Origin: a virus
Virus record (IMG/VR): IMGVR_UViG_3300032401_001514
Location: 32,001 to 96,000 of that record
Direction: 5' to 3' (one strand)
Length of the DNA: 64,000 nt
The notes under the pieces: generated by a model
Databases searched by the model: none
The model's input: the letters and a program-made list of their open reading frames with translations, nothing else
Told to the model about the DNA's origin: nothing
Part shown: piece by piece, positions 34,038-61,950 of the stretch
Layout of the letters: each line of letters begins with the position of its first letter
Position numbering within the stretch: the first letter of the stretch is position 1
Translations under genes and position numbers: made by a program

Positions 34038-34046
34038 ATACTCTCC

Positions 34047-34847: not shown

Positions 34848-34857
34848 TAATAACCTC

Positions 34858-35487: not shown

Positions 35488-35517
35488 TTATTTTCCTTTG
35501 TTGTTTATACTAGTTAA

Positions 35518-45319: not shown

Positions 45320-46133
45320 TGTATTTTGGATTTTTAATATATGAATCGTGATCTATTTGATATAGAGGGCTTCCGTTTTTCCACCAACGCTTTTTAAAAC
45401 AACCAACGTTATGACTCATAAACATTTTATTAACAGGATTTAGTTTTAATGTAGCGCTTTCTTCATGAGTTATTTTTGTTTCGCCAGCGTAAACAATTTT
45501 CTCATCCTTACCTATACGTAAACACAGATCGATATCTTCAAAAGCCCAGTTTAAATCTTCGCACATGCCGCCAGCTCGTTTAAAACTAGAAACCTTCATT
45601 AAACATACAGCGGCAGTTACGGCCTGAAAATATCTGTCTGCATAAGAAGCTGCATCCGCTTCTTCATGACGCCTATAGTGCCATGGCATTTTACCATACT
45701 GATTGCTAAAAATTACTCCGGCATGTTGTAATTTATTATCATTATCCATAAGTTTAGCACCAACAACAGCTGCATTAGTTTTCTTCATTAAATTCCACAT
45801 TTTTAATAAAGATACTTCTTCGTTAAATATCACATCATTATTCAAAAGTAAAATTAAATCATCATCATTTGGATCAGCTTGTTTAAATAAATAATTAACA
45901 CATGTGGCAAAATTATCTCTATTATGACCTGCTTCATACAGATTTAATTCGGATTGTTCCCACAAAGGTGTTGATAATATTGCTTTAGTATTATCTTTTG
46001 ACCCATTATCTCTTACGTGCCATATAAAATCCATATCATTTTTAAGTTGGATAAAATTTTGTTTCAATCCATATTGTAACTTTTGTAATTTTTGCTCACC
46101 ATTCCAAGTTAATGTTAATGCATGTAATTTCAT
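45306..46133 (-). CDS. Glycosyltransferase family 2
   Basis: RDNGSKD, LLNND, AVTAA, FEDIDLCLR. Confidence 0.88.
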   Translation of the reverse strand: MKLHALTLTWNGEQKLQKLQYGLKQNFIQLKNDMDFIWHVRDNGSKDNTKAILSTPLWEQSELNLYEAGHNRDNFATCVNYLFKQADPNDDDLILLLNNDVIFNEEVSLLKMWNLMKKTNAAVVGAKLMDNDNKLQHAGVIFSNQYGKMPWHYRRHEEADAASYADRYFQAVTAAVCLMKVSSFKRAGGMCEDLNWAFEDIDLCLRIGKDEKIVYAGETKITHEESATLKLNPVNKMFMSHNVGCFKKRWWKNGSPLYQIDHDSYIKNPKYNVID

Positions 46134-46327
46134 AATAGTTCCAGTAAATTTCTAACAACAAGGAATATAGCTATTGCACACCCAATTATTCCAGAACCAA
46201 ACATAATATGCAGTCCGTCATAAGTGCTAATGCTTGGACCTAATGATATCAAAAATCCTATTAATATCCCGTATAACGGATATAGAAAATAGGAAACAGA
46301 TTTTAAGAAGATGTCTTTGAAAGCCAT
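46130..46327 (-). CDS. Small two-TM membrane protein
   Basis: Two hydrophobic stretches; ATGA overlap with the downstream GT2. Confidence 0.5.
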   Translation of the reverse strand: MAFKDIFLKSVSYFLYPLYGILIGFLISLGPSISTYDGLHIMFGSGIIGCAIAIFLVVRNLLELL

Positions 46328-47037
46328 TTGTTTACAAAAATAGTTCGTGCATTTAAATATAGCTCGGATATATTTAATTTTTTACTGGTCATCTTGCCAA
46401 AATGAATTACCGGAACTGGAACAATTTGCGTTGGTATACCGGCGTCCCTGGCCCTGAATCCCAAATCCGTATCTTCAAAATAACAAAAAAATTCTTCGCT
46501 AAATATTTCATTATCAGAAATGTCTAGTTTCTTCCAAGTCTCTTTAGAAGCAGTAATACACCAACCAGACATATAAGAATTGCCATCTAAATTTGTATTT
46601 GCTTCTTTAACAAAATTTAAATTATTATCTAACTGTCCCATGGTCGGCCCAACAATAGCGCCGTAACCATTAATAATATCATTTTTAGCTGCTGCAATTA
46701 ATGGCTGTGTCCATGTTTTATAGTTGTCCTGCACTCTGACATCATTGTTTAAAAACATTGCATACTGGCCTTTTGATGCCTTAAAACCCTTATTGCAAGC
46801 TTTACCGAATCCTTCGTTGATTTCGTTTCTAATATAACGAAATCCACCAGGCAATATTGGTCCGCCAGAACCATCAAAAAACATTGTGGTTAACATCATT
46901 TCAGTATCATCAGTGCTGCCATTATCAACAATAATCACTTCGTGATCATCAGGTAATTCTGACAAATCTTTTAATGTAGCTTTGGTGAGGTTCCAGTTGT
47001 TAAAAACCGGTATTATAATACTTAATTTAATGGTCAT
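46303..47037 (-). CDS. Glycosyltransferase family 2
   Basis: SIIIPVFN, IVDNGSTD, FLNND, YFEDTDL. Confidence 0.9.
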   Translation of the reverse strand: MTIKLSIIIPVFNNWNLTKATLKDLSELPDDHEVIIVDNGSTDDTEMMLTTMFFDGSGGPILPGGFRYIRNEINEGFGKACNKGFKASKGQYAMFLNNDVRVQDNYKTWTQPLIAAAKNDIINGYGAIVGPTMGQLDNNLNFVKEANTNLDGNSYMSGWCITASKETWKKLDISDNEIFSEEFFCYFEDTDLGFRARDAGIPTQIVPVPVIHFGKMTSKKLNISELYLNARTIFVNKWLSKTSS

Positions 47038-47519: not shown

Positions 47520-47932
47520 TTGTGTCCTTTTAATCTTTGATGTAAATCTTCCTCATACTCATGCACGCGCCAACCAAACTTATTAATTCTAGCCTGAGCC
47601 TCTTCCATATCAATCGGTCTTAGTCCATCAGCATCTCCAATTGATATAAAGTATGGTTTAAATGATTTTGTAAAAGAATCAAATTCGCCGCATGCTTTCC
47701 ATGCTGGCTTCCAATTTCTTAAACGAAAATAATCATCCGTGTATTGTTTAATTGATCCTAATATATTTTCTTTTATTAAAGGCGTGTATGGTTGATTCAC
47801 GAATTCTTTGCTTATTCTAATTATTCCGTCAATAAATGTTTCGTTTTCTGGATTAATACCTTTATCAATAGTATTAAATATGCTATCATAAAAATAAGGA
47901 GTTTGATATATTATTTTATTACTCATTGACAC
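47516..47932 (-). CDS. Hypothetical protein
   Basis: 138-aa ORF, coupled. Confidence 0.6.
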   Translation of the reverse strand: MSMSNKIIYQTPYFYDSIFNTIDKGINPENETFIDGIIRISKEFVNQPYTPLIKENILGSIKQYTDDYFRLRNWKPAWKACGEFDSFTKSFKPYFISIGDADGLRPIDMEEAQARINKFGWRVHEYEEDLHQRLKGHK

Positions 47933-49011
47933 AATCCTATTATTTGATCAACAATCTTATCCCATGTTAAACGCGCTAGTTGCTCTTGCATATTGGGACG
48001 GAACTTATTCATTAAATCATCATAGTTGCCTACTGCAAGCTTTAATTTACTAGCAGCATCCTCAATGCTTGGTTCGAACGTCTTGGCATAAGGAGATGGA
48101 ACCCAATATTGCATTTTCTTTGGCGCTCTAACCTCTTTGCCTTCTATAAGCAACGAATTGTTTTCGTTCATATATTCAAGCTGTCCTCCCCAATTAGGAG
48201 CTATTACCAAGTTGTTTGTAGCCATACCCTCTAATCCAGGCAACCAAAAGCACTCTGCGTGAGTAGCTGAGAACACGATATCGCAGGCATTATACAAAGG
48301 AACCATGCTATCTAAGAACTTTGTAATAATTTCTACCTCAGCATGATCAGGATATTTCTTACAAAATGTATTATAAATATCCCAAAAATCAACAACAAAA
48401 GAACGCAGATTATTTGTGGTTTTATTTATGCTTATTTTAACTACCAAACAAACATCATCTTTTTTTGTAAAAGCTTTTCCGAATGATTCTAATAAACCAT
48501 CTATATTTTTTCTAACATGAGGTTGAGCAATATTGGCAAGTATCTTATATTTCTTTTTTGTATTAAGCTTATATATTTCTTTTGATGAATATTCTTCTGT
48601 ATTAATTCCGTGTGGCACAACAACCATATGTTCTTTCGGAACGCCGTTACTACTATATATAGATTCCATAAATTTAGAGCTTGGCAATAATTTATCGGTT
48701 GCTTTATAATATTTAGCAAACCCTGGCGGCAAAACAGTTGTTTCGTAATTCCAAATACCAAATCTATTTTTTGTTCCATGAGATAAATAACCTGCAAAAT
48801 TTCTCATAGCCGTATAACTAATTTGCATATCGTAATTATTATCTAATTTTTCATTTATATATGGCTTTAAATCTAATGGAAATAAATCGTAACCATTTGT
48901 AGATTTTAAATGAACTTCGTGATTTTTCTTAATTAAAGCTCTAGCTATATTTTGTCCAACAATTGACCAAGAATGATTCTGAGATAAAAATTGTTCCATA
49001 CATACTTTCAT
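47923..49011 (-). CDS. Glycosyltransferase family 4
   Basis: VVPHGIN, VRKNID, AECFWLPGLEGMA. Confidence 0.88.
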   Translation of the reverse strand: MKVCMEQFLSQNHSWSIVGQNIARALIKKNHEVHLKSTNGYDLFPLDLKPYINEKLDNNYDMQISYTAMRNFAGYLSHGTKNRFGIWNYETTVLPPGFAKYYKATDKLLPSSKFMESIYSSNGVPKEHMVVVPHGINTEEYSSKEIYKLNTKKKYKILANIAQPHVRKNIDGLLESFGKAFTKKDDVCLVVKISINKTTNNLRSFVVDFWDIYNTFCKKYPDHAEVEIITKFLDSMVPLYNACDIVFSATHAECFWLPGLEGMATNNLVIAPNWGGQLEYMNENNSLLIEGKEVRAPKKMQYWVPSPYAKTFEPSIEDAASKLKLAVGNYDDLMNKFRPNMQEQLARLTWDKIVDQIIGLCQ

Positions 49012-49050: not shown

Positions 49051-51999
49051 TTATGCAGATATAAGGCCAGAAATACTAGTCGATGGCACAACCAGAATTG
49101 AATTGTTCCATCCGGCCTTTTTCAAATATACTGTAATCTGTATCTTAGATACTAATGTCAAATATATAGGATCAACGCTCAAATCTTTAACGGTCAAGCT
49201 AAGGATGCCGTTGTTTTGGTCCATGTATATGCCGATGATGTCATCAACAATAATTCCATAACCATCTGTGTCATAGCCGTCCAAATTTGGAACGAATGAT
49301 TGCAACGCCACTCCAAAACGAATCTTATTCAAAAACAAATCTTCAGCTTGTACTGTTGTGCAATCTGCATATTTACATGCGGGATATCCAGCACTTGTAA
49401 ATCCGTTCCCTTGATCCGCTACCAATTTATGGAATACATCTATGCTTGATTCTTCAAAAGGCATCTGAGGAAGCTCAAGTATTATATGCTGAATTTCTAT
49501 GTCAGTCTTATACATATCCCCGTTAGGCCTGATTATATGTCCTGAACCAATGATTAAATTATCTGGCACAAAGAAGTCATTTCTACCAGGATCACACGTT
49601 GGACTAATAGTACCCCTATCTTCGCATTCAAAAGTTAATGGTATAGAACAAGATGCTGGTTTTATCTCGTTTCTATAAGTAAATGTTTGCGGAACTATTC
49701 TGGCATGTGAATCAACTCCTAATTGATAGTCTTGCCAGAATGGCTGAGGTTGAATTTCAAATGTAACTCCTGGGAATGGAACGATATTAAATGTTCCAGG
49801 GTCAGCGCCATCTATACTCGGAACCACAATATATCCGTCATATATTATTTCAGTCGTGCTTAATGATGACGTGGGAACTACATTGTCAGATTGATAACCA
49901 TCTAATCTAATATATCCATCGCCACAATCATAATAACCATCATAACGACCAATGCTTTGCTGCACTTGCAAACAAAGATGATTAAATGAATATCCAACAG
50001 TAAAAGAATTAATTGATCTATCTACGAAGCTTTGAATCAAATTAACGTCATCAGCAGAAACATATCCGTCACCATCAACATCCGCTCTTAATAATTCTAA
50101 AGTGCTAATATAGCCATCTACAATTTTTTGTTGTGTAGACGATAAAGCTAATCCCTCTCCAATAAGTTCTGCCGCTCTGGTTACATCCAAGTTATTAATT
50201 TCGCCGTCTCCATTAACATCTCCGTAACCATCTGTACAAAGTGTTGCTCTAAAAATTCTATAATTATATGCTCTGCAATCTACGCTTGGAAATAATTTGC
50301 TACCAATTAAATTCAGTGACAAAAGATCTGCATCAGGATTTACTATACAGTAAGTATCTCCTTTAGCTAAACCTGGAAGGCTTTGAGTCTTAATTAATAA
50401 TGTATTGTTCTTCGGGTTTGAATCAACAACGCAACCTATAACTAGCGGCTCCGAAATTTGCTGCAAATCTTCTAATGAAGCCTCAGTAACGAAACTAAAT
50501 GAAGGAATCGTTTGTTGACGCGAAAATACATTATTGCCAGTTCTCTCATCTTGTACTGTTAAACTTTCTTGGAAAGTGGCCTGTAGCACACCTATATTGT
50601 TGACATTCTCGCCAGTTGTAGAAAATGAGAAGTATCTTTCTTGATTATCAATGGTAGCGCCAGTTGCTGGGTCTACTGTTGTTTTGGCGAAAGATATACC
50701 GTTTCCAGCATCATAACCTTGGCCATCAGCTATTTTGGAGGCGTCTGTCCAAATTTGGAACCACATATCATCTTCTGGAACATCGGTCCAAATGCCAGTG
50801 AATATTGTTAATCTAGAATCTGGTGTCCAGTCATTTCCTGTCTCAGCAAAAATAGAGCCGACACTTGCGTCACCAGAACGTCTAAATGTAACGGTGTAAT
50901 AATGATCAGGATTTATTCCGCCTGGTTTTGATATCGAAGTATTATTAAATACAAAATCAACCGGCTGAGCCACGTCATTAAGAACATAGCCAAGGTTTGA
51001 TAATTCAGTAATGCTAACACTAAATTCTACTAACGGGTTTGGCTCAGGCTCAAATTCAATAGTTAGATCGGGGATGATATCAGTTGGGCAATCTACCGTG
51101 GTTTGCAACTTATGAATGCTAATAATTAAATTGCCTGACCAATCAAATCGATGCTCAATAGATGCCGCATCATCTCGTCCGACGCCTAACAACAATGTTA
51201 TTTTTTGAATATTATTTGTGGTTGTTTTAAACTTTTGTCCATAACGTGTGACTACATCGCCGGCCTCAATAGAGCGAACTTGTTTTCCAGTTATATTTAT
51301 ATTTAATGCATCAACGCTATATTCCGGCCCTATTGCATCTTGTAACGTAGCGTATAATTCTGAAATGCCAGGTTGTGAAGGAATTACAATTCCACTAGTT
51401 TTGAAATCCCTAAAGAAAATATCAGGCATCACATCCTGAGATGTCATAATTACATCGCGTGATAACTGAAAAGAAGCTACTTCGCTAATGTATACTTCGC
51501 CGCCTTGATTTCTGGAACAATTATTATTGCCTTTAAAATCATTAAATAATACAGTTAACAATCTTTTATAATGATTGGCAGTTACTTGCTTTTCATTTTT
51601 ATGAAACGTCAGACGATCCATAATTAAGGTGCCATCAAATGACAATCCAATAATAAGAATTTTTACTTGTAATCTACCAAAAACACTAGAGCCTGTTAGC
51701 TCAACTTCTAATTGGTTGCCAAGATTGGTATCACTTGGTTGTGCATGAAAATCTAATCCAGTTCCATCAAAATTATTAGCTGCCAATAACGCCGCTTGTT
51801 CCGCTGTTAATTCGGTGGTATCAAAAAGTACACGTTGTTCTGGGGATTCTAAAAGAACGCCAGAGCCAAAATGATTTTGAATAATGGACGCATCTATTTG
51901 ATTGTTATTGGTTTGCTCAGTGTCTAGATCGGCTTTATCTACACGTTGAGCATCACTCCATTTGTTTTCTATTACTGATACTTGGTTTCGTATGGTCAT
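49051..51999 (-). CDS. Large virion/baseplate-associated protein with dockerin-like domain
   Basis: GDVNGDGEINNLD and ADVDGDGYVSADD paired loops (~50030-50226); directly downstream of the baseplate genes. Confidence 0.7.
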   Translation of the reverse strand: MTIRNQVSVIENKWSDAQRVDKADLDTEQTNNNQIDASIIQNHFGSGVLLESPEQRVLFDTTELTAEQAALLAANNFDGTGLDFHAQPSDTNLGNQLEVELTGSSVFGRLQVKILIIGLSFDGTLIMDRLTFHKNEKQVTANHYKRLLTVLFNDFKGNNNCSRNQGGEVYISEVASFQLSRDVIMTSQDVMPDIFFRDFKTSGIVIPSQPGISELYATLQDAIGPEYSVDALNINITGKQVRSIEAGDVVTRYGQKFKTTTNNIQKITLLLGVGRDDAASIEHRFDWSGNLIISIHKLQTTVDCPTDIIPDLTIEFEPEPNPLVEFSVSITELSNLGYVLNDVAQPVDFVFNNTSISKPGGINPDHYYTVTFRRSGDASVGSIFAETGNDWTPDSRLTIFTGIWTDVPEDDMWFQIWTDASKIADGQGYDAGNGISFAKTTVDPATGATIDNQERYFSFSTTGENVNNIGVLQATFQESLTVQDERTGNNVFSRQQTIPSFSFVTEASLEDLQQISEPLVIGCVVDSNPKNNTLLIKTQSLPGLAKGDTYCIVNPDADLLSLNLIGSKLFPSVDCRAYNYRIFRATLCTDGYGDVNGDGEINNLDVTRAAELIGEGLALSSTQQKIVDGYISTLELLRADVDGDGYVSADDVNLIQSFVDRSINSFTVGYSFNHLCLQVQQSIGRYDGYYDCGDGYIRLDGYQSDNVVPTSSLSTTEIIYDGYIVVPSIDGADPGTFNIVPFPGVTFEIQPQPFWQDYQLGVDSHARIVPQTFTYRNEIKPASCSIPLTFECEDRGTISPTCDPGRNDFFVPDNLIIGSGHIIRPNGDMYKTDIEIQHIILELPQMPFEESSIDVFHKLVADQGNGFTSAGYPACKYADCTTVQAEDLFLNKIRFGVALQSFVPNLDGYDTDGYGIIVDDIIGIYMDQNNGILSLTVKDLSVDPIYLTLVSKIQITVYLKKAGWNNSILVVPSTSISGLISA

Positions 52000-52003
52000 G
52001 CTT

Positions 52004-55000
52004 TCACGGTATTAAATTAATTGTTACTTTAGATTGAGCAGGTTTAAGCGCGGATATAAGCTCTCTAAGCACTTGTTCTATTTTAGCGTTGCTTAAAACT
52101 ATGCCAAAAGAGTCTAAGATATTTAGAGTAAAGTTGAAAATGCCGAATTTATCATCTCTTAATATAGCGAAGTCTGTATTCTTTGTAACAAGCTGGTCAA
52201 AATCTAATAGAAATGTAGTAAACGCATCTGTAATAGCCGGCCTAGCTTGAGAAATATTCGAAGTATAATTAACATCTTTTGGTTGTCCAGCAATAATAAC
52301 TGGAGAAAGAGCTATATCACTTATTTTTAAATTATCGAATCTAGCCTGTGCTGGCTGCGCTCCCAGATAATCAGAGCCTATAAAAAATTGATTTATAGGA
52401 TCTGTAAAGTTCATATCAGCAACAATACGGCTTATGCCGCCAGAACGCCCCATTCCGAAAACAGCCCCGCTTCCAAATATTAAACCAGCACCAAACATAA
52501 CAGTGGCATTTTCTTCTCCATCTACGAACATTCTTAATTCGTCTTTATTATCAGATCTATTGAATTTATATGTTACACGAATTCGGTGCCACGTATCTCT
52601 TTGCCAGAATATAGATTGGCTAATTTTGTAATCAATATCTCCGATTCTTACGTCAAAATTTATAAAACCGTTTTTATCTTTAAATATAGTAATTCTGTTT
52701 CCAACAAGGCCTGACGTAATATAAATTATTTTTACAGGAGTTTGTTGATAAGGGAGAGCAATTCCTAATTTAATAGTTTGAAAGTCATCCTCAATTCTAC
52801 CACCAGCAAAGTAATTAACGCCAGAATTATCAACATCAGTTTGTAATCTAACGGCCAATACTGTTGAAATTCTTCCTGCTGTTTTAACACTGCCGCTGGT
52901 TATGCTAGTTACTTTTTCAACTGATGAAGAGGCTGCGTCAAAATAAACCCTTACATTTGGATCATTGAATGTATCAAATTTTGGACTAACCCAAAATTCA
53001 ATAGTGCCCTCAGAGGTAGTTGGAAGATATCCGTTGTTATCATATATTAATGGTTTATCCATAATAACAACGCTTTGATTAAAAGTTTCATTAACACTAT
53101 CACTTGATTGAATAAATTCTTTAGTTGAGCTAATATAATAATCTGAGTCATTATTAAATGGAAATTCATCAAGGTGCAATAACATTAAAGTTTTACTGTT
53201 TTTATCAAATGGTCTTAAAGATGTGAAATCACTTGTGATAGAATCTTGCCCTTCCGGTAAAATCTCACCAACGCGCACATCCGTTAACATATTTGATAGA
53301 ATCCTAACCTCGTCTATAATAGCTTTAGCTTGTTCTCCACCATTAAAATTAGAACCTACATACGCTGTTAAATCATTTGTTGGAGCAAAAGGAATTTCTA
53401 GATGAGCAGAATAATCCAACTCATACACTCCTTGCTTTAATGGATAATCAGTATCTACGGATCCTGCCAATTCAAATGTAAAGAATCCATTTTGGAACCC
53501 ACTTCGTCCCAAACTGATATCAAATATATCATAAATGCCATCAGTAAACGCTGAGCCGGGAGCTGGAGATATTGTAAGCGTGTGTTCATCCGGTCTGGAA
53601 ACTATATTATATGTTCCAACAACAAGTGCCGGAGATGATATTGCTAATTTATTCCCTATGTCAGAATCTAAAAATAGCCTCTGTGAATCTGTTATAACAG
53701 CGCTGCCATCACCCTGCAATGTTATACCGTGTGCAGTCTTAAAACTGAATCTAACAATAGGGAAATTGTTGTTACCATCAGGCTCGGTAATAGAATAAGC
53801 TTCTTTAATTTCTATAGATGCTGAATTTTTTACTGGATTAAAAACTTCCATTACTGCTGTTGCGGAAGTAATAGTCTTAAATTTCTCAACACCAATTATT
53901 GCCCCAGACGCAGTGAATGTAAAGATTTCAAATACAGCCCCGCTAAAGGTTGTTCCAAATACCGTCACAGTAGCAGGCGTAGAGAAGTTTATATTACCAC
54001 CAGTCATATAAACAGAAAGTCTGCGGCCCTCTGTAGAATTTGATGTTTGTGTAGGAGCGAGTCCAGCCGCTGTATATGTATTGCCAAAAATTACTGCATT
54101 ACCAGGGCCAATTACAACAGAAGGCAACAATATAGCGGTTATCTTTGCTTCATCCAAATTGATTGGTGGAGGCAATTGAGATCTAAGGATGCTTGTTGTA
54201 TCACCCCATACAAATTGTCTGCTTCTGGCCCTTCTATGATTTAGCCCAAGTGTTCTAATAACAATCTGATCGCCAGCTATTGCGTTGCCCAATAATGTTA
54301 AAACGTCTTGATTATAAAGATTTTTCCCAATTGAATACGAAGGAATATCTGCTCGCAACCCTGGTATTTCTGTTTCGACTAAACCGCTAATAATAGATAC
54401 AGCAATATTTGAAGATAAATTTATTTCACTTGAAACTACTACTGAATATGGATTTACAGAGAATCTTACGTTAGACAATGTGGCAGGCATTGGTAAATTC
54501 AAAGTTAATGCATAACCATTAACAGCTGTTATATTATATGACCCAAATCCTATTTCAATAATATCTATCGTATCTCCTGGTAAAATACCGGAGGTCTGAA
54601 AATTAACGCTATCAGAAAATACTATTGAAGAACCATTTGTTACATTTAAATCTTTGTTTGTTATTGTTGTTAACGGCACAGTTCCAGCAACAATTTCAGC
54701 GCTAATAGTTCTAAATCTATCCGTAGATGTAGCTATAGGTCTGCCGCCATACCTTAATAAATTCGGAACCTCAAAACCGTCAATAAATAAATGCATTTCA
54801 TCTCTGCGCTCAACAGAACTTAATCTCCAAGAAGCCGCAATATGATGTTTTTGTCCAGACTTCCAGTCAGAAATATCAGAGCTTATCTTAAAAGAACTTA
54901 TTGGATTTTCAGGAATTGTCGGATTCCCTTTGCTAAATGTCTGGAAATTTAAATATCCTTTTCCGTCTTTGAATATAGAGAACCTATTTGTAGTATTAGT

Positions 55001-58000
55001 TTTAGCAAAATCAAAAATATAATGTTTATCATCAGACATAAATATAATGCCATCAAATGAGAATCCAGGCACATATCCATCCGTATATCCATCATATCCA
55101 TCAGCGTAACCATCAGCGTCATTAGAATTTAAATTAAAAGTAAATTGAATTTTGTTATTTAAAGTTCTTAATACATCGTCTGGTTCGCCAAGATTTTGTT
55201 TAAAACCAACATCATAGAATTCGCCAGAAGTTAGTATCTCGCCTCTATATGCATATCCGTCTACTATTGGAACATCTTTTGCTAAAATTTCCCAATGTTT
55301 TGTATCTGTGTTATAAAAAATGAACACACCAGTTTTTGTAAAAATAGCTGATGGCAATCCTAATGGACTTAATTCATCGTTACGATTAATTGAGAAAGAA
55401 TTATTGCTGTCATAAATTGGATTAAAACTTGACGCACCAATAAAAACGCTGCTTGCTGGTAATACATATCCATCCTTTGTTAAGGATATGGTTAATGTAG
55501 AGTCATTATCTAAACCGTCCCATTCAGGAATGACCCATGCTTCCCAAGTGCCTTCTTCAAGTTTAAAATTGCTTGAAATCGGGAACGTAATAGTTTCGTC
55601 TGGATTTGCAATCAACGCTCCGTTATCGAATTTACCAGGCAACAAAGCAATATCACCAGTCCAATCAACGGCATTTTGAAATAGATGACTGATGCCTAAA
55701 GACCATATATCAAAAACAGATTCTATAATTTCCGGGTCAACATGCGTGATACGTGATACCAACTCTGTAATAGCCGGAATTGTTGGACCTTTTGTGAATG
55801 ATTGAAGTGCCGCCTGTAAAGCATCACGATAATTCTCTCGTGGTAATGATGTATCAAACGTATTTAAAATTGGCAGATCAACTAATGTTCCAAAGTTTTT
55901 TAACAATGAATCTCTAACTGCTCCAATAGTATATGTAACGAAATACTCTTCCCCTTCGTTCAATGCTCCGCTTTCTCTAAAATCTAATACGTTATCACCA
56001 TGTTCATAACTAACCAATATTTCATCAGCCAAATATGTATAATTAACGAAATAATCTCCTCTGTTGTAGTCAACAACTGGAGTGGCCGCCCCATTCAATT
56101 TCATACGATAAATAACCAATACCGAGTCCCCTGGAACCGGAGATCCAAGACCAGATAGATTAATTGTGTATCCAGAAAATGTTCCAGAAGAATCCCATAG
56201 TTCGACATTATCAGTAGTACGAATAACATTGGTAACATCAGAAAGTTCAGCCCCAGTAGAAATAAACGATACAACAATTGATGGACCAGTAATAACTGTA
56301 TTTAATTCTTTCTTTTCAACTCCAGTAGAATCCAATGTAATAACGTTGCCAGAAGATGTTGAACCTTCCGCAAAATCGGTTATATCAGCGTGGTTATTTA
56401 AATCAAATGCATCGAATATATGACGAACACGTTTGATATCATTCGTAACAGTAATTTGACCATTATCAACTATGTATGGCAAAGAAACGTCATCATTTAA
56501 AAAACGCTCATCAGAAATATCAAATTTATTTGGCGTGATAATCCCTTCTCCAAACGAAGAGAAATCCATGATCTTGCTAGAGCCGGCTACAGCATTAATA
56601 CTATAAAACAATTCTGACACACTAATGACGTGTGGATTTTCAGGACTAATTGTTGGCTTGGCATAATTTACAGTTCCTACATTTAAAACTTGAGATGAAG
56701 TTACGCCAACATAAATTAACCCATTTCTATAATCTATTTGATATTGTCCAACGAGCAACCTGTCCGTATTGGTGGCTACATCAAAAATTTGAGCATCATA
56801 ATATAATTCTTTTTCAAATATATCAATTCTGCTAAAAGACACACTTGAGTTGAAACTTGATCCTATTGCATCATCTGTGGTTGATATAATTTTATTATTA
56901 ACAAGCGGTAAACGATATATTCTGGTACTAAGAATATTAATAAATTCTAAATCAACTAATAATGTTTCGTTAGATACTTCTGTAAATTTTATAGACTCTT
57001 GTAATTTATCAATAATTCTCGGAGATGTATTGGCTGTAAAATATACGGTATTATCAGAGAATCTATTTAAGGCATATACCTCACCACTTGTTTCATTAAA
57101 TATTCTAAATACATTGGTGATTGGAGAGTTTTTAACTAGAAATGAGGCTGTGCTTGTTAATCTATTTTCTATACGCTCGTCTAATTCTTCTTGATGAATT
57201 TGTGATTTAAAATCAACTCCAGGTACCAATGTCTGTTCAAAATCAAATGACACTTTAACAGATTGGCTAATCAATTCTCTTAATGGATTAGCAACTAAAT
57301 CAGAGCCGGTTGATGTAGAATTATGTATTGGATCAGTATCTAAATCGAATGTATAATCAATCCTGTTACTAAATGATTTTCTATAATTATATGTAGCTCC
57401 AGGAGGAAATACACCAGAACCATCATTTGTAGTTGCTCCATAAACATATACTTCGCCTTTAGAATAATCAACAGAATAATCCCCAGTAACCCTTGGAAGC
57501 CCTTCTAACCTAAATGGTATCTCATGTTTAAAGGCTGGATGAACGCTAGAGAATGGTGGATTAGCTTGAGGGTCTAAAAATTCAATACCATCAGACGTAG
57601 GGATTTGATCAGAGTCTGTCACAACTGGTGCGTGTTTTAATATAAATCGGTTTAATATTGGAGGAACAGCCTCTCGGGTTGCCTCCAACACCTGTGACAC
57701 TAATACAGAATTTGGATCAATAATTCTGCCTAAAGACTTGTATTCATAATCAACAACTAATGTATCTCCAGACTGAGGTACAGGTAAATCGGGATTATCT
57801 AAAACCGCCGAATTTAAATTAAATTGATTGTCTTGCAACGTAAATAATGCTGATGCAACATTTGTATCATAATTAGGATTTTTAATTTGATACCCAAGAG
57901 TAGAAAGGTCATATTCGAAACTGCCACCAGATTCAAAATATAAAATTGCTTTATTAAGTTTTGTTACCGGTCCATGTTTAACAGTTAATATTAAATTATC

Positions 58001-58708
58001 AAATGTGCCAGCAATAGTTCCAGCAAACAATTTCTCTTTAATTACATCTGTTCTTAACAAAGTAATAGGGTCTTTAGGAAAGCTGGTATAACTAAAACTT
58101 GTACTTAAATTAGTAGCAGTTCTATTTCTTCCAACGCGATCTACTTGATACGCGCCCTCTTCATTTAATCTATCATACGGTCCCAAACCTCTAGTTTTTT
58201 TCTCATCCTGTATTAAAATTTCTAAATAATTATCACTTAATGATTGACCAATATCATGTAAAGCTTTGCCGATATATTTAGATTGTAAATTAACAATATC
58301 TCTAGCAATGGTATTATTATCAAGACTTAATATGCTTTGTTTATCTAAATAACTTAATAAAATATCTCTTGTTATATCTGCTGGATCTTCCGGCCCCAAT
58401 AATAAAGAAACGTTTGTATTGCCGTCTTCAAGAAGAAATGATTGACCATTTTGTGATTTAAATCTGCTGGTTTGTGAAGATTTGAAAGTAACAAAATATG
58501 CAGCGTTCGGCGTCATTGGTCGAACGATAACATTCATAATATCATTTGATATTGTTACTTTTAAAACTTCAGCATCAGGAACGCCAGGAACGTTTGATAC
58601 AACGGTGACATTCGTTGCATTTAACAACGAATCTAATGTGCCAGTAAATTGAGCACGAATAAGCTGGCTATCCGATGCTTTTATTCTGACCAATCTTAAG
58701 TTAGCCAT
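52004..58708 (-). CDS. Giant baseplate wedge-like protein with LamG/ConA-like domains
   Basis: RENYRDAL..GPT..AI wedge-like segment; EGTWEAWV/EGTIEFWV, WHRI, LFIDG/MFVDG, IDEVRI/FDNLKI LamG-like motifs. Confidence 0.7.
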   Translation of the reverse strand: MANLRLVRIKASDSQLIRAQFTGTLDSLLNATNVTVVSNVPGVPDAEVLKVTISNDIMNVIVRPMTPNAAYFVTFKSSQTSRFKSQNGQSFLLEDGNTNVSLLLGPEDPADITRDILLSYLDKQSILSLDNNTIARDIVNLQSKYIGKALHDIGQSLSDNYLEILIQDEKKTRGLGPYDRLNEEGAYQVDRVGRNRTATNLSTSFSYTSFPKDPITLLRTDVIKEKLFAGTIAGTFDNLILTVKHGPVTKLNKAILYFESGGSFEYDLSTLGYQIKNPNYDTNVASALFTLQDNQFNLNSAVLDNPDLPVPQSGDTLVVDYEYKSLGRIIDPNSVLVSQVLEATREAVPPILNRFILKHAPVVTDSDQIPTSDGIEFLDPQANPPFSSVHPAFKHEIPFRLEGLPRVTGDYSVDYSKGEVYVYGATTNDGSGVFPPGATYNYRKSFSNRIDYTFDLDTDPIHNSTSTGSDLVANPLRELISQSVKVSFDFEQTLVPGVDFKSQIHQEELDERIENRLTSTASFLVKNSPITNVFRIFNETSGEVYALNRFSDNTVYFTANTSPRIIDKLQESIKFTEVSNETLLVDLEFINILSTRIYRLPLVNNKIISTTDDAIGSSFNSSVSFSRIDIFEKELYYDAQIFDVATNTDRLLVGQYQIDYRNGLIYVGVTSSQVLNVGTVNYAKPTISPENPHVISVSELFYSINAVAGSSKIMDFSSFGEGIITPNKFDISDERFLNDDVSLPYIVDNGQITVTNDIKRVRHIFDAFDLNNHADITDFAEGSTSSGNVITLDSTGVEKKELNTVITGPSIVVSFISTGAELSDVTNVIRTTDNVELWDSSGTFSGYTINLSGLGSPVPGDSVLVIYRMKLNGAATPVVDYNRGDYFVNYTYLADEILVSYEHGDNVLDFRESGALNEGEEYFVTYTIGAVRDSLLKNFGTLVDLPILNTFDTSLPRENYRDALQAALQSFTKGPTIPAITELVSRITHVDPEIIESVFDIWSLGISHLFQNAVDWTGDIALLPGKFDNGALIANPDETITFPISSNFKLEEGTWEAWVIPEWDGLDNDSTLTISLTKDGYVLPASSVFIGASSFNPIYDSNNSFSINRNDELSPLGLPSAIFTKTGVFIFYNTDTKHWEILAKDVPIVDGYAYRGEILTSGEFYDVGFKQNLGEPDDVLRTLNNKIQFTFNLNSNDADGYADGYDGYTDGYVPGFSFDGIIFMSDDKHYIFDFAKTNTTNRFSIFKDGKGYLNFQTFSKGNPTIPENPISSFKISSDISDWKSGQKHHIAASWRLSSVERRDEMHLFIDGFEVPNLLRYGGRPIATSTDRFRTISAEIVAGTVPLTTITNKDLNVTNGSSIVFSDSVNFQTSGILPGDTIDIIEIGFGSYNITAVNGYALTLNLPMPATLSNVRFSVNPYSVVVSSEINLSSNIAVSIISGLVETEIPGLRADIPSYSIGKNLYNQDVLTLLGNAIAGDQIVIRTLGLNHRRARSRQFVWGDTTSILRSQLPPPINLDEAKITAILLPSVVIGPGNAVIFGNTYTAAGLAPTQTSNSTEGRRLSVYMTGGNINFSTPATVTVFGTTFSGAVFEIFTFTASGAIIGVEKFKTITSATAVMEVFNPVKNSASIEIKEAYSITEPDGNNNFPIVRFSFKTAHGITLQGDGSAVITDSQRLFLDSDIGNKLAISSPALVVGTYNIVSRPDEHTLTISPAPGSAFTDGIYDIFDISLGRSGFQNGFFTFELAGSVDTDYPLKQGVYELDYSAHLEIPFAPTNDLTAYVGSNFNGGEQAKAIIDEVRILSNMLTDVRVGEILPEGQDSITSDFTSLRPFDKNSKTLMLLHLDEFPFNNDSDYYISSTKEFIQSSDSVNETFNQSVVIMDKPLIYDNNGYLPTTSEGTIEFWVSPKFDTFNDPNVRVYFDAASSSVEKVTSITSGSVKTAGRISTVLAVRLQTDVDNSGVNYFAGGRIEDDFQTIKLGIALPYQQTPVKIIYITSGLVGNRITIFKDKNGFINFDVRIGDIDYKISQSIFWQRDTWHRIRVTYKFNRSDNKDELRMFVDGEENATVMFGAGLIFGSGAVFGMGRSGGISRIVADMNFTDPINQFFIGSDYLGAQPAQARFDNLKISDIALSPVIIAGQPKDVNYTSNISQARPAITDAFTTFLLDFDQLVTKNTDFAILRDDKFGIFNFTLNILDSFGIVLSNAKIEQVLRELISALKPAQSKVTINLIP

Positions 58709-58710
58709 TA

Positions 58711-61700
58711 TTAACGCTCTTCAATGTTTATAGTTACTACATTTGCTGTAATAAATTCGTTATCCTTGGCAGTAATACTTAATACAGAACCTGCCGTATT
58801 AGCATAATTAAAATATAGTATTATAGCTCTATCCACTCCGTTAACTGTATATGCAACATTTATTAAATCCGAAGAATCAATTGTAGTTCCTAAATTCTTA
58901 GCATTTAAAGCTGTTGTAACTGCGTCCTGTACATTTTGTTTAACTGTTGTTGTGTTGTTAATGAATTCTGTTGTAACAACAATATTCATAGTAACATCAA
59001 TCGGAATTGAAGTTGCTGCTTTAACCAAAACGTCAGCTGTTATAGGCCTTGAATTTTCAATATTTAATGTTGAATCAGATATTAATTTATTAAAATTATA
59101 TCTAATTATAATGCGCTCATTTGGTTTAGGCGCTAGATAATTATATGTCGTAGTATACCTAGCTCCAGTAATCGGTTGATTAGTATTTGTAATTGATAAT
59201 GTGGCGCTGGATGAAGATCCGGATGTAAACCCGCTAGATATGGATACAGTGTCAACAATTGCGAATATTTTATTTGTAAATAATGTTCCTCCACGACTGA
59301 AATAAACACTTTCGTTATCACTGTCAAATATAATATGAAAAGTCACTCTTATCTTTTGACCAACGGTAGGCAAATTGGCTTCATTGTCAGCGGTGCTTGG
59401 CAATATAACTTCAGTATATGTTAATGAAGAATCTGCTATTGATTCGTCTTTAACAAATGTATTCTCTCTAAGATGATAGCCTTTTATATCATACGTATGA
59501 TCAACGCTCAATACATCATTGTTAGATGTAGTAGTTACTCTTTCCATATTTATTATTCTGGCCAATTTCACATTACTTGGAACAGACTGATTGGAATTAA
59601 GTCCCAAAAATATTCGTATTGCTGAAGACAAATTTAATTTTAATCCTGAATTTGTCACTGAAAATACAATGTCAGAAGCGCGGCTGATTGTTATTCCGGA
59701 TATTGTTATGATGCCTGGTGAAATTGAGCCAGCAATACTTAATGCAAGCCTGCTGGGAGCTTGTCGTAAATTTTGAATTACTACGCCTGGAGATGAAAAT
59801 ATATGAGAAGTTGGTTGATTTCCAACACCTGTTGCATTGCTAGTATTAAATACATTGCCGGAACGAACTGCTGGTAAATTAGCAAGTGTCGTAGAAGGCA
59901 ATATAGCACTTACGTTTGCTATGTAATTTACTTCTACAATTGAACCAGCAGTAGCAATTGTTGATGGAACTATATTTATTATATTTTGATTAAAATTACC
60001 TTGGTAACCATCGGCGTTAAAAACATCAACGGCATTATATACTACACTTGTTGTGTCACCAAAAACTGCTACAGTGTCAGTTGGCAAGAATATTGTAAGC
60101 CCGCTAAATGAACCATCAAATTTGCTTGTATCATATAATTCTGCGCCATCAGATGTTCTAATTACACTTACAACGTTTGTGACCGGCTGTGTCACAATTA
60201 CAGACAATCTATTTTGGGTTAATGTTACTGAGCTATTATTTGTTGCAAAAACATTAACATCTACTACTGTGCTTATTGGATGTGTAACAGTAACTAATAA
60301 CGTTGATCCAGAGGCTATTAAAGTGGCAGTCTCTCTTCTTACATTATTGGAGAACCCCCAATCAACGCTATCTTTTACAGATCTGATATTCCTTCCATTC
60401 ATTCTATTATCAAAATCAAAGTCCGCATTATATTGGAAAACCCATGTGTAATCCACTTGTAAAATATCAGTGGCTGCTGGCAATGAATTTCCACTTATTA
60501 TTATTCTTCCGGTTGTATTTACTGTTCCACTGCCATCAGGGTTTTGACTTGTTACGACATATCGCTCGCCAGTCGTTGAATTAAAAACTCTAGTTACATT
60601 CTGTACAGGAGTGTGCGCCAATTGAATTGATGTGCGATCACTGCGGCTTATTTTGCTGTTTTCATTAACTACATTTATATTTTGAGTAACATTTGATATT
60701 TTCAAAACATCTGGGTAACTTAATGCATCTTGACCATTAAAAGTTAATTTAGTATTGTTTTCTTGAAGATCAGAAATTTGATTAGAAATAAAATGTAATT
60801 TATCAAAGCCCCATGGCGAGCCTGCAAACTCTCCAGTATCTCTTATTAATTGGTAATTACCGCTTTCTCTTCCTAATGAATCAACTGTTCTTTCAATAAA
60901 ATTTGAACCGCTAATAGAGCCGCTAATTTTAACAAGGTTATTGACTGGCTGTTCTGGCAAAATATCAGTTTTAAGATCATCTATACGTTTGCGTGTTACT
61001 GTTTTTCCGGCATCAGCATCAATTTGGCCCAATACAAAATCATTAAGATAGTTCGTAGGGTCGCCAGTATTGCTTAAATCTCTATAAATAAAGCTATCTA
61101 CTGTTTCTAATAATCTGGTGCCGAAAATATAAATATCTACTTTGCCACCAGTTCCTTCGGAAATAATTATTTCGTTACCATTTTCATCAGTAATAACCTG
61201 AGTGCCATCACGAGTCATTAAAATATCGCCAGGTTCAATTACAATGGCATCTAAAACAGCAGGATCTATGTTTACAGCATTTCTGTAACCCAAAGATGTA
61301 CCAGTATTAGCTCCGCTGAATATTCCTAAAATACGACCTCTAAAAGAGGCGTCATCTTCAGATTGACCTCCTCCTCCGAACGGCTGTACGTTTGTAATAT
61401 TCGAGACTCCTTGAATTTGTGTTCCGGATAATGAATATTTTGAGATGTTACCTTGCACTCCAGCCGCAGATGATTCTACCAATACTGATACTGCATATTG
61501 ATCTGAAATACCGACAAAATCTAAATCGGACCTATTTTGAGCAGCGATAGCTCTATACGAGTTAGCAAATACTGGATTAACCACGGTACCTGTTGAAACA
61601 ACGAATGAGGCTCCATTTCTAGCCGTCACTATACTTCCTTGATTAATTGGGATATCAGCCTCTAAAGAGGCAAATGTCAATAATGCTGGACCGCTGGATT

Positions 61701-61950
61701 TTGTTCCACGTTGTCTGATTGCCCCGAAGTTAGAACCCAATCTATCTAAATCAATACCAATGGCTAATCGCAAAGATTGTTTGCTAGAAACGCGCGCAAG
61801 CTCTTCATAAAGACGGCTTAATTGAATTGATGGACCATCAATAACCAAATCTCTTGAAACTGTTCCAGGCTTAGTATCTAGATTCGGTTGAGCCGTTCTT
61901 AAATACTCAAGAAGGCTTAATACTATCTCGTTATGAGTGCGAATACGCAT
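58711..61950 (-). CDS. Extended baseplate J-like protein
   Basis: PGTVSRDL, LDRLGSNFG..R..GT.S.G, EDDASFRGRI, GT..G, C-terminal VNGVD; ~700-aa internal insertion of beta repeats. Confidence 0.85.
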   Translation of the reverse strand: MRIRTHNEIVLSLLEYLRTAQPNLDTKPGTVSRDLVIDGPSIQLSRLYEELARVSSKQSLRLAIGIDLDRLGSNFGAIRQRGTKSSGPALLTFASLEADIPINQGSIVTARNGASFVVSTGTVVNPVFANSYRAIAAQNRSDLDFVGISDQYAVSVLVESSAAGVQGNISKYSLSGTQIQGVSNITNVQPFGGGGQSEDDASFRGRILGIFSGANTGTSLGYRNAVNIDPAVLDAIVIEPGDILMTRDGTQVITDENGNEIIISEGTGGKVDIYIFGTRLLETVDSFIYRDLSNTGDPTNYLNDFVLGQIDADAGKTVTRKRIDDLKTDILPEQPVNNLVKISGSISGSNFIERTVDSLGRESGNYQLIRDTGEFAGSPWGFDKLHFISNQISDLQENNTKLTFNGQDALSYPDVLKISNVTQNINVVNENSKISRSDRTSIQLAHTPVQNVTRVFNSTTGERYVVTSQNPDGSGTVNTTGRIIISGNSLPAATDILQVDYTWVFQYNADFDFDNRMNGRNIRSVKDSVDWGFSNNVRRETATLIASGSTLLVTVTHPISTVVDVNVFATNNSSVTLTQNRLSVIVTQPVTNVVSVIRTSDGAELYDTSKFDGSFSGLTIFLPTDTVAVFGDTTSVVYNAVDVFNADGYQGNFNQNIINIVPSTIATAGSIVEVNYIANVSAILPSTTLANLPAVRSGNVFNTSNATGVGNQPTSHIFSSPGVVIQNLRQAPSRLALSIAGSISPGIITISGITISRASDIVFSVTNSGLKLNLSSAIRIFLGLNSNQSVPSNVKLARIINMERVTTTSNNDVLSVDHTYDIKGYHLRENTFVKDESIADSSLTYTEVILPSTADNEANLPTVGQKIRVTFHIIFDSDNESVYFSRGGTLFTNKIFAIVDTVSISSGFTSGSSSSATLSITNTNQPITGARYTTTYNYLAPKPNERIIIRYNFNKLISDSTLNIENSRPITADVLVKAATSIPIDVTMNIVVTTEFINNTTTVKQNVQDAVTTALNAKNLGTTIDSSDLINVAYTVNGVDRAIILYFNYANTAGSVLSITAKDNEFITANVVTINIEER

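What the first reader, a model, noticed from the sequence alone, without database searches (positions are those of the whole stretch)
49051..58708. DGY tripeptide strongly and specifically enriched in virion proteins: candidate modification sequon
Hand count of DGY: 9 in the 982-aa protein (cluster YDGYYDCGDGYIRLDGY at 49894-49941), 6 in the 2234-aa protein (DADGYADGYDGYTDGY at 55073-55114), 1 in baseplate J (60004), 3 in the 622-aa fibre (12197, 12323, 13148) and 1 in the 868-aa fibre (10916). That is 20 in ~5,800 aa, about 1 expected from composition, versus only 2 in ~15,000 aa of other ORFs. Different synonymous codons are used, so selection is at the protein level. Next to a large soluble glycosylation island, DGY is a plausible acceptor site; Tyr O-glycosylation is known from some Gram-positive S-layer proteins. 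Alternatives are degenerate Ca/metal-binding turns (one or two fall in the dockerin loops) or a protease or assembly tag.
Basis: partly seen in the sequence, partly recalled or inferred. Interest (0 to 1): 0.85.

Follow-up and report, generated by a model that had tools for sequence, protein, structure and literature searches.

The report
DGY tag on huge-phage virion proteins
The tail, baseplate and fibre proteins of this uncultured huge phage and its relatives carry the exact tripeptide Asp-Gly-Tyr about ten times more often than chance, which looks like an undescribed tag that may mark where the phage's own enzymes attach sugars to tyrosine, though no modification has been shown.

Summary
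On the whole 129.6-kb contig, DGY is the most over-represented of all 8,000 tripeptides (43 seen, 6.6 expected). The virion module holds 40 (2.9 expected); the other ORFs hold 3 (3.5 expected). The signal is in frame and uses nine codon combinations. It is exact: DGF, DGW, NGY, EGY, DAY and DSY are not enriched, and the flanks carry no information.

It replicates in a complete 459-kb relative (structural blocks 73 vs 8.2) and in 75 related loci (519 vs 60). T4 virion proteins show only 2.6x.

DGY sites sit in loops. Lineages with few DGY carry unrelated residues at the same positions, so neither the fold nor Ca binding needs the motif. Sites come and go between lineages, and one loop holds 0 to 4 tandem units. 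This is selection on the motif itself.

A GT4-like glycosyltransferase gene was found in every lineage where its locus could be seen. No relative without it was found, so the link between motif and enzyme remains circumstantial. The tyrosine-glycosylation reading is the leading but unproven explanation (about 0.4).

Earlier work in this scan reported the same tag in at least 18 other genomes.

The parts
49051..51999 (-). 982-aa peripheral baseplate protein, the DGY-richest protein (9 sites). Its homologues average 9.0 DGY against 0.22 expected.
   Evidence: The AF2 model has pLDDT 80. Foldseek matches phi812 baseplate proteins, CBM/malectin/discoidin-like sandwiches and a dockerin.
49894..49944 (-). 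DGY cluster YDGYYDCGDGYIRLDGY (residues 686-702), three sites in a loop and short-strand region.
   Evidence: The sites are conserved in 52-59 of 59 aligned homologues. In DGY-poor lineages they are replaced by DEY/DYY, S-GY/E-TY and NPY/YYA/YTP.
50032..50226 (-). Type I dockerin module (residues 592-656). DGY644 occupies positions 5-7 of the second Ca loop, DGY590 lies just before the first loop, and DGY628 lies in the linker.
   Evidence: Pfam PF00404, E 2.4e-7. Fold match to the ScaB dockerin, TM 0.73. In 35 of 59 homologues loop 1 also reads DGY. DGY-poor lineages have the canonical DG-V/I/T/K.
49258..49281 (-). DGYDTDGY pair (residues 907-914) in a long hairpin loop of low model confidence.
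   Evidence: pLDDT below 50 for residues 903-920. Conserved in 56-59 of 59 homologues.
52004..58708 (-). 2234-aa baseplate or fibre-network protein with a ConA-like lectin domain; 6 DGY.
   Evidence: Laminin_G_3, E 3.9e-10. Orthologues carry 0-13 DGY, mostly at lineage-specific positions.
55073..55120 (-). Tandem run DADGYADGYDGYTDGY (residues 1197-1212) in a loop of variable length.
   Evidence: 4 units here, 2 in G006 and L124, 1 in G012, 0 in G011, and the loop is deleted in L005.
58711..61950 (-). Baseplate J-like wedge protein (1079 aa) with 1 DGY at residue 647 (nt 60004-60012).
11840..13708 (-). 622-aa fibre-like protein with 3 DGY (residues 185, 460, 502).
   Evidence: Partial homologues in relatives are very DGY-rich: 12 in a 1637-aa protein of G037 and 6 in a 1002-aa protein of G006.
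9215..11821 (-). 868-aa Gly-rich (25 % Gly) fibre-like protein with 1 DGY (residue 300).
47923..49011 (-). GT4-like (GT-B fold) glycosyltransferase, the first gene after the 982-aa gene and the best-conserved island gene. It is the candidate priming enzyme; this is inference.
   Evidence: Weak Pfam GT4/GT1 matches and PHROG 2170 at 3e-31. 64 % identity to the G006 orthologue. Present in all clade genomes and in 26 of 50 records, including every record that covers the locus. A 33 % identical homologue occurs in the G012 lineage.
43599..47037 (-). Conserved island core: three GT2 genes and a 324-aa protein of unknown function.
   Evidence: 38-49 % identity to G006, same order.
27099..43602 (-). 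Rest of the glycan island: a GT2+GT6 fusion, GT11, methyltransferases, a DegT aminotransferase, GDP-mannose dehydratase and epimerases. The middle is variable and the distal sugar-nucleotide genes are conserved.

Best explanation
DGY is a real short linear motif selected for its own sake on a subset of virion proteins, apparently the outward-facing ones. The carriers are inserted sheath domains, peripheral baseplate proteins, fibres and several unassigned large structural proteins. The motif is found across a clade of uncultured phages of about 390-460 kb. The most likely mechanism has three steps. First, the motif sits at loop tips, where a trans-acting phage enzyme reads it in the cytoplasm. 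Second, the best candidate reader is the GT4-like glycosyltransferase encoded directly after the baseplate genes; it would add the first sugar to the Tyr hydroxyl, with Asp two residues upstream needed for recognition or as a base. Third, the neighbouring GT2, GT6 and GT11 enzymes, methyltransferases and GDP-sugar enzymes would extend and decorate the glycan, giving a sugar coat on the outer virion surface.

Shown: the enrichment and its exactness, restriction to certain virion proteins, loop location, dispensability for the fold, turnover between lineages, and co-inheritance with the transferase island.

Inferred: that the motif is read by an enzyme, that the enzyme is the GT4-like protein, that Tyr is the acceptor, and that the carrier proteins face outward.
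For: Enrichment: 43 vs 6.6 on the whole contig, rank 1 of 8,000 tripeptides. Virion module 40 vs 2.9, the rest 3 vs 3.5. Replication: complete relative G006 has 73 vs 8.2 in its structural blocks (P about 3e-43), 2 vs 2.0 in the island and 9 vs 13.4 elsewhere; 75 clade loci give 519 vs 60. T4 virion control: 5 vs 1.9. Exactness: DGF, DGW, NGY, EGY, DAY and DSY are 0.6-1.8x while DGY is 8.9x, and no flank residue exceeds 2.4x. The sites are not a repeated domain and not a DNA word. Secondary structure from the models puts all 12 modelled sites (9 in the 982-aa protein, 3 in the sheath) in loops or at the ends of strands or helices. The sheath sites lie outside the roughly 320-residue core that aligns to solved sheaths at Z 32.5. 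DGY-poor lineages carry unrelated residues at the homologous sites. Sites are gained and lost between lineages, and one loop varies in DGY copy number. About 6,400 aa of virion-module proteins, including the tape measure and the tube-region ORFs, have none. The island encodes only glycan-building enzymes, and no GT8 or sulfotransferase occurs in five clade genomes. The GT4-like gene is in all five genomes that are at least 91 % complete and in every lineage where the locus is visible. It lies next to the 982-aa homologue in G001, G006, G007 and G009. Phage-encoded virion glycosylation and Tyr-linked bacterial glycans both have precedent (PMC11256854 citing Freeman et al. 2023; PMC2943079).
Against: There is no direct evidence of any modification. 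The GT4-like enzyme has only generic similarity to solved GT4 enzymes and no assigned acceptor. Co-occurrence of motif and island is universal in the clade, so it cannot discriminate: DGY excess does not correlate with GT-B identity (rho -0.19), and the island also sits beside DGY-poor homologues. Non-virion phage proteins are not significantly depleted of DGY (O/E 0.67 and 0.87). Many sites are very strongly conserved within families, more than a pure glycan shield would need. In diverse sheaths the excess also reaches the conserved core. No soluble protein Tyr-glycosyltransferase that recognises a tripeptide is known (own knowledge).
Confidence: 0.4

Rival explanations
1. Adhesive or ligand-binding micro-sites. 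Asp-Gly-Tyr loops on the virion surface could act like small paratopes that bind host-surface or environmental polysaccharide, or a metal ion, giving multivalent weak attachment. No covalent modification would be involved.
For: The motif needs both the Tyr hydroxyl and the Asp carboxylate. It sits in loops of CBM-, lectin- or discoidin-like sandwiches and of inserted sheath domains. It multiplies in expandable loops and turns over between lineages. Tyr, Gly and Asp dominate natural binding loops (own knowledge).
Against: Binding sites normally need a three-dimensional context and tolerate Phe, Trp or Asn variants, but here only the exact linear word is enriched and the flanks are uninformative. 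This reading does not explain the conserved glycosyltransferase island in the same operon.
Confidence: 0.22
2. Docking or processing tag for another phage factor. DGY could be read by an assembly chaperone, a decoration protein, a cross-linking activity or a different Tyr-directed enzyme encoded elsewhere in the roughly 430-kb genome.
For: The same sequon-like behaviour applies. Only about 30 % of this genome is on the contig, and many virion-module and island ORFs have no annotation.
Against: No sulfotransferase or GT8 was found in five clade genomes. No candidate reader other than the transferases was identified. The tag occurs on proteins from sheath, baseplate and fibres, which rarely share one chaperone (own knowledge).
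Confidence: 0.15
3. Structural or Ca-binding turn. DGY would be a favoured beta-turn or EF-hand-like loop element (positions 5-7 of DxDxDG) that stabilises extracellular beta-rich virion proteins, amplified in this clade by descent.
For: DGY644 lies in a dockerin Ca loop, and in most homologues both loops read DGDGY. Several runs are Asp-rich. All modelled sites are turns or loops. T4 virion proteins show a mild 2.6x excess. Sites are highly conserved within families.
Against: DGY-poor lineages have NGA, AGT, QGE, NPY, YYA, YGY and the canonical dockerin DG-V/I/T/K at the same positions, so neither the fold nor Ca binding needs DGY. Conservative variants DGF and NGY are not enriched. D or N at positions -4 and -2, and D or E at +7, are barely enriched, and only one or two of the 43 sites fit DxDxDG. 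Other beta-rich virion proteins have no DGY. Sites are gained and lost freely.
Confidence: 0.12
4. Artefact: compositional bias, low-complexity repeats, a DNA-level word or post-hoc selection of one tripeptide.
For: The motif was picked by eye, and eight of the 43 sites lie in tandem clusters.
Against: An unbiased scan of all tripeptides ranks DGY first in two genomes. Within-protein shuffles reach at most 18 against 43 seen, and the declustered count is 35. The signal is in frame only. The other orderings of D, G and Y occur 2-12 times.
Confidence: 0.01

Closest known systems
Virion glycosylation of mycobacteriophages (Che8, Rita) by phage-encoded glycosyltransferases (Freeman et al. 2023, read only through PMC11256854)
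   Same: Phage-encoded soluble glycosyltransferases act in the cytoplasm on virion structural proteins and give a glycan coat on the particle.
   Different: There glycans are reported on major capsid proteins of roughly 60-kb siphoviruses with two transferase genes. Here the putative targets are sheath, baseplate and fibre proteins of phages of about 430 kb, the island spans roughly 22 kb, and a defined tripeptide containing Tyr is proposed as the site. Modification is shown there and not here.
Tyrosine O-glycosylation of S-layer proteins in Paenibacillus alvei, Thermoanaerobacter and Thermoanaerobacterium (PMC2943079)
   Same: A bacterial-world precedent for stable beta-Gal/beta-Glc-to-Tyr linkages on surface-array proteins.
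   Different: That pathway builds the glycan on a lipid carrier and transfers it outside the membrane with an O-oligosaccharyltransferase, and no sequon is defined. A phage virion assembles in the cytoplasm and would need a soluble, direct transferase.
N-X-S/T sequons and viral glycan shields (own knowledge)
   Same: A three-residue acceptor word with uninformative flanks, located in exposed loops, gained and lost between lineages and accumulating on surface proteins.
   Different: Different residues, chemistry, compartment and enzymes. The analogy concerns evolutionary behaviour only.
DxDxDG / EF-hand-like Ca loops of type I dockerins (Pfam PF00404)
   Same: One or two DGY sites occupy positions 5-7 of such loops in the 982-aa protein.
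   Different: Canonical loops have V, I, T, K or E after DG, as DGY-poor homologues do. Most DGY sites lack the D/N pattern of a Ca loop.

Membership tests
Sequon-like short linear motif (behavioural class, e.g. N-X-S/T) | An exact short word, with neighbouring variants not enriched and uninformative flanks | tested here: met
   DGY is 8.9x while DGF, DGW, NGY, EGY, DAY and DSY are 0.6-1.8x, and the strongest flank enrichment is 2.4x.
Sequon-like short linear motif (behavioural class, e.g. N-X-S/T) | Restricted to one class of substrate proteins | tested here: met
   Virion module 40 vs 2.9 and the rest 3 vs 3.5. G006 structural blocks 73 vs 8.2 and the rest 9 vs 13.4.
Sequon-like short linear motif (behavioural class, e.g. 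N-X-S/T) | Not needed for the fold, with positional turnover between lineages | tested here: met
   Unrelated residues occupy the homologous sites in DGY-poor lineages. Gains and losses are lineage-specific, and one loop holds 0-4 units.
Sequon-like short linear motif (behavioural class, e.g. N-X-S/T) | Motif present only where the reading enzyme is present | tested here: inconclusive
   The GT4-like gene is found in every lineage where the locus is visible. No enzyme-free relative was found, and there is no correlation with GT-B identity.
Sequon-like short linear motif (behavioural class, e.g. N-X-S/T) | Avoided in non-substrate proteins made in the same compartment | tested here: inconclusive
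   O/E is 0.87 (3 vs 3.5) and 0.67 (9 vs 13.4, P 0.14); neither is significant.
Phage virion glycosylation system | Phage-encoded glycosyltransferases and sugar-nucleotide enzymes linked to structural genes | tested here: met
   A GT4-like gene, four GT2 domains, GT6, GT11, methyltransferases, DegT, GDP-mannose dehydratase and epimerases lie directly after the baseplate genes. The core is conserved and syntenic in relatives.
Phage virion glycosylation system | Glycan covalently attached to virion proteins | not testable with these tools
   This needs virion or recombinant glycoproteomics.
Protein tyrosine O-glycosylation | Sugar linked to the Tyr hydroxyl at the motif | not testable with these tools
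   The only indirect support is that Tyr cannot be replaced by Phe or Trp in the enrichment.
Protein tyrosine O-glycosylation | A transferase family known to act on Tyr (GT8 glycogenin-like) | tested here: not met
   No PF01501 match in G000, G006, G007, G008 or G010, although the family was detected in 5 of the 14 control genomes.
Dockerin / DxDxDG Ca-binding loop | D/N at loop positions 1, 3 and 5, Gly at 6 and an acidic residue at 12 | tested here: not met
   The pattern is met by DGY644, and by the loop 1 position in homologues, but by only one or two of the 43 sites. Flank D/N enrichment is at most 2x. Tyr is not required in dockerin loops.
Contractile tail sheath (carrier protein) | Sheath fold | tested here: met
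   Z 32.5, rmsd 2.6 A over 321 residues to the phi812 sheath. Pfam Phage_sheath_1C and PHROG 279 also match.

The most novel reading that the evidence does not exclude
DGY is the acceptor sequon of a new, soluble, cytoplasmic protein tyrosine O-glycosylation system. It would be primed by the conserved GT4-like enzyme at the end of the baseplate operon, and huge phages would use it to coat the outer surface of their tails, baseplates and fibres with a strain-variable glycan.
Probability: 0.4. Interest if true: 0.9.

Novelty: new variant of a known kind. Interest (0 to 1): 0.7.

Why it matters
If DGY is a glycosylation sequon, it would be the first defined acceptor motif for phage virion glycosylation. 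It would also be the first tripeptide sequon for tyrosine O-glycosylation in any system, read by a soluble enzyme that could be moved into E. coli for glycoengineering. It would imply that a widespread clade of 400-kb environmental phages displays a variable sugar coat on the tail surface, with consequences for host recognition, adsorption and defence evasion. The idea can be tested directly with recombinant proteins, although the phages themselves are uncultured.

Tried and rejected
- DNA-level word: rejected. The motif is in frame and on the coding strand only.
- Repeated domain: rejected. Windows of about 30 residues either side of each site share nothing significant beyond DGY.
- Composition or post-hoc choice: rejected by the scan of all tripeptides and by shuffles.
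- General property of tail proteins: T4 shows only 2.6x, and DGY is not among its top tripeptides. The DGY word against its reversed control is 1.3-2.6x in T4, phiKZ, phage G and LE2-3, and about 4x or more in the clade.
- Ca loops as the general explanation: rejected.
- Tyr sulfation or a GT8-type enzyme: no such genes in five clade genomes.
- Search for relatives without the island, none conclusive. G011 has low DGY, but all three assemblies end about 300 bp after the 982-aa homologue. G012 appeared to lack the GT-B, but a 289-kb contig shows a 33 % identical homologue two genes downstream. G037 lacks it on a 76.6-kb contig, but the locus is rearranged and the island probably lies off the contig, while DGY is 13x. 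P0409 and P0418 are DGY-poor homologues with the island present. P0405's contig ends too early.
- Correlation of DGY excess with GT-B identity: none.
- Cultured relatives: none close. The sheath is 29 % identical to Eggerthella phage LE2-3, and the 982-aa protein has no hit.
- Identity of the 543-aa, 1779-aa and 1678-aa proteins: PDB sequence searches (all three) and the protein atlas (the first two) gave nothing.
- Solvent exposure of the tyrosines: not computable, because model coordinates are not exposed.
- Alignment A3 was too diverse for a locus search, and P0326 gave no IMG/VR relatives.
- The phrase 'DGY motif' appears in no paper of the library. Freeman et al. 2023 is not held.
Full report
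THE OBSERVATION

There are 9 DGY in the 982-aa protein, 6 in the 2234-aa protein, 1 in baseplate J, 3 in the 622-aa fibre and 1 in the 868-aa fibre. Composition predicts 1.15 for these five proteins. The other window ORFs counted hold only 2. The quoted clusters and nucleotide positions are right to within a codon or two. Nine different codon triplets encode the motif.

EXTENT AND SIGNIFICANCE

The window is bases 32001-96000 of a single 129,628-bp viral contig. CheckV rates the contig about 30 % complete.

Across 132 called ORFs (41,602 aa) DGY occurs 43 times. The order-0 expectation is 6.6 and the Markov-1 expectation is 11.3. It is the most over-represented of all tripeptides by either model. 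In 2,000 within-protein shuffles the maximum was 18. Counting each cluster once still leaves 35.

After DG, Tyr is 5.1x enriched while Phe is 1.0x and Trp 1.2x. Before GY, Asp is 4.9x, Asn 1.3x and Glu 0.5x.

The DNA word GAYGGNTAY occurs 47 times on the coding strand, 43 of them in frame in called ORFs, and twice on the other strand. The selection therefore acts on the protein.

The split between protein classes is clean:
- Virion module: 40 DGY in 16,938 aa, 2.9 expected.
- Other 102 ORFs: 3 DGY in 24,664 aa, 3.5 expected.

Inside the virion module the motif is also uneven. About 6,400 aa have none, including the tape measure, the ORFs in the tube region, a gp25-like protein, a 1678-aa protein and one of two 702-aa proteins.

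Beyond the window's high-coordinate end, DGY occurs in the sheath (3), a 264-aa protein (1), a 1779-aa protein (6), a 543-aa protein (5), a DUF2345 protein (2) and a 702-aa protein (3).

REPLICATION IN RELATIVES

No cultured phage is close. IMG/VR and metagenomes hold hundreds of relatives. Five of them are genomes of 392-459 kb rated 91-100 % complete.

- In the complete 458,729-bp relative G006, DGY is again the top tripeptide (84 vs 23).
- G006 by compartment: structural blocks 73 vs 8.2 (P about 3e-43), island region 2 vs 2.0, remaining 94,199 aa 9 vs 13.4.
- 75 sheath-centred loci pooled: 519 vs 60. The median of the 57 larger loci (over 3,000 aa) is 7.5x.
- 982-aa family: 115 homologues average 9.0 DGY against 0.22 expected.
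- Sheath family: 120 homologues average 2.9 against 0.13 expected.
- Control: 19 T4 virion proteins have 5 against 1.9, and DGY is not among their top tripeptides.
- The DGY word against its reversed control is 1.3-2.6x in T4, phiKZ, phage G and LE2-3, and about 4x or more in the clade.
- A few lineages at 48 % sheath identity or less are near this baseline: G011 and L116/L117.

WHAT KIND OF FEATURE IT IS

1. It is not a repeated domain. Windows of about 30 residues either side of each site share nothing significant beyond DGY.
2. It is an exact word. In G006's structural blocks DGF, DGW, NGY, EGY, DAY and DSY are 0.6-1.8x while DGY is 8.9x. No flanking position is enriched more than 2.4x over 126 pooled sites.
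3. It sits in loops. In AlphaFold models of the 982-aa protein (pLDDT 80) and the sheath (pLDDT 78), all twelve modelled sites are in loops or at the ends of strands or helices. The DGYDTDGY pair lies in a loop with pLDDT below 50.
4. In the sheath it lies in the inserted domains. The sheath model aligns to solved sheaths at Z 32.5, but over only about 320 of 819 residues. Sites 173, 180 and 197 fall in the inserted domains. In solved sheaths such domains form the outer tail surface; this is established knowledge, not measured here. In the diverse sheath set the excess also reaches the core (O/E 5.6-11), so 'outer only' is a tendency.
5. It is not needed for the fold. At the ten conserved sites of the 982-aa family, DGY-poor lineages have NGA, AGT, QGE, DEY, NPY, YYA, YGY or EGQ. 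In the two dockerin Ca loops they have the canonical DG-V/I/T/K.
6. It turns over. The three sheath sites of this subclade are absent in L011 and L012, which have DGY at other positions. Of 13 DGY columns in six 2234-aa orthologues, most are specific to one lineage. The tandem run is a loop of variable length, with 4 units here, 2, 1 or 0 in relatives, and the loop deleted in one.

Together these results indicate selection for the motif itself at structurally varied loop positions. This is how sites read by a trans-acting factor behave.

THE CANDIDATE READER

The genes after the 982-aa gene encode a GT4-like enzyme, four GT2 domains, GT6, GT11, three methyltransferases, a DegT aminotransferase, GDP-mannose dehydratase and epimerases. 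No sulfotransferase or GT8 is present in five clade genomes.

Comparison with G006 shows a conserved core, a variable middle and conserved distal sugar-nucleotide genes. The core is the GT4-like gene at 64 % identity, three GT2 genes and a 324-aa protein of unknown function.

The GT4-like gene is present in all clade genomes tested. It lies next to the 982-aa homologue in G001, G006, G007 and G009, and within 3-4 kb in G005 and G010. In the most distant genome it is better conserved (51 %) than the baseplate protein (41 %). It was found in 26 of 50 records. All but three of the negative records do not reach the 982-aa homologue at all.

Its sequence gives only generic GT4 similarity.

THE CO-VARIATION TEST

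They could not be decided.

- G011 is near baseline (5 vs 2.1; its 2211-aa protein has 0 DGY). All three assemblies of that lineage end about 300 bp after the 982-aa homologue.
- G012 has an intermediate excess (9 vs about 2.2). It seemed to lack the gene, but a 289-kb contig of the same lineage has a full-length homologue (33 % identity, E 5e-61) two genes downstream, inside a GT2-rich island.
- G037 has no GT4-like gene on its 76.6 kb yet shows a 13x excess. Its gene order is rearranged, and the block that follows the island in my contig sits at the very start of the G037 contig. The island probably lies just off the contig.
- DGY-poor 982-aa homologues P0409 and P0418 still have the island.
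- Among 25 records that carry the GT-B, DGY excess (3.6-16.9x) does not correlate with GT-B identity (rho -0.19, P 0.36).

Co-occurrence is therefore universal and does not discriminate. Non-virion proteins are not significantly depleted of DGY.

VERDICT

The best explanation is a surface tag read by a phage factor. Tyr O-glycosylation primed by the conserved GT4-like enzyme is the leading specific mechanism (about 0.4). Precedents are phage virion glycosylation (PMC11256854, citing Freeman et al. 2023) and Tyr-linked S-layer glycans (PMC2943079).

The remaining rivals are non-covalent binding micro-sites (about 0.22), a tag for another factor (about 0.15) and a structural or Ca turn (about 0.12).

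The same tag was already reported by this scan in at least 18 other genomes of the clade. This window is a further, independently verified member.

Noticed in passing
window 50032-50226 (-): A true type I dockerin module sits inside a peripheral baseplate protein (Pfam E 2.4e-7; fold TM 0.73 to the ScaB dockerin). Precomputed Pfam marks it in most homologues listed. It may bind a host cohesin or plug in an accessory protein.
   Followed up: partly
L122, L123 and G011 (L120:1-330): Three independent assemblies of the DGY-poor G011 lineage (42, 52 and 155 kb) all end about 300 bp after the 982-aa homologue. This is exactly where the glycosyltransferase island starts in relatives. It may be a genome terminus, or a hypervariable region that breaks assembly.
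   Followed up: no
L125-L128 (G037, 76.6 kb): The gene order is rearranged. The 982-aa homologue is followed directly by homologues of window genes 790-4926. The post-island and fibre block (homologues of window 11840-25707) lies upstream of the head genes. The fibre homologue there has 12 DGY in 1637 aa, and a 130-aa ORF has 4.
   Followed up: partly
window 27099-49011 versus G006 317834-346011: The island has a conserved core (GT4-like gene, three GT2 genes, a 324-aa protein of unknown function) and conserved GDP-sugar genes at the far end. The middle is variable: the GT11, methyltransferases, C-methyltransferase and several unknown ORFs have no homologue in G006.
   Followed up: partly
L001:14384-16843 (sheath residues ~116-245); P0373, P0380, P0381: The DGY-bearing inserted domain of the sheath recurs at 45-49 % identity inside other large proteins of 672-1097 aa. 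These are themselves DGY-rich, but at unrelated positions. The domain looks like a mobile surface module.
   Followed up: partly
genome 18691.. (about 13.3 kb before the window start), 370-aa ORF: One 370-aa protein accounts for the next most enriched tripeptides of the contig: GHS 17 times, TSG 13, HST 9 and YGH 7. It is an internally repetitive His/Ser/Gly protein of unknown function.
   Followed up: no
L124:12945-21546: In the P0418 lineage five similar-sized ORFs of 401-455 aa separate the 982-aa homologue from the GT4-like gene. A PolyA_pol-family nucleotidyltransferase gene sits inside the glycosyltransferase island.
   Followed up: no
L002:16317-17183 (-) and L002:14437-16320 (-): A LAGLIDADG homing-endonuclease gene (PHROG 4645, 9e-46) overlaps the start of a 627-aa DUF2345 (VgrG-like) structural gene near the contig end.
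   Followed up: no
G010 311991-313148 and G046 266519-267691: In the most divergent complete genomes the GT4-like domain (36-38 % identity) lies within a longer open frame of about 760 aa, so it may be fused to another domain.
   Followed up: no
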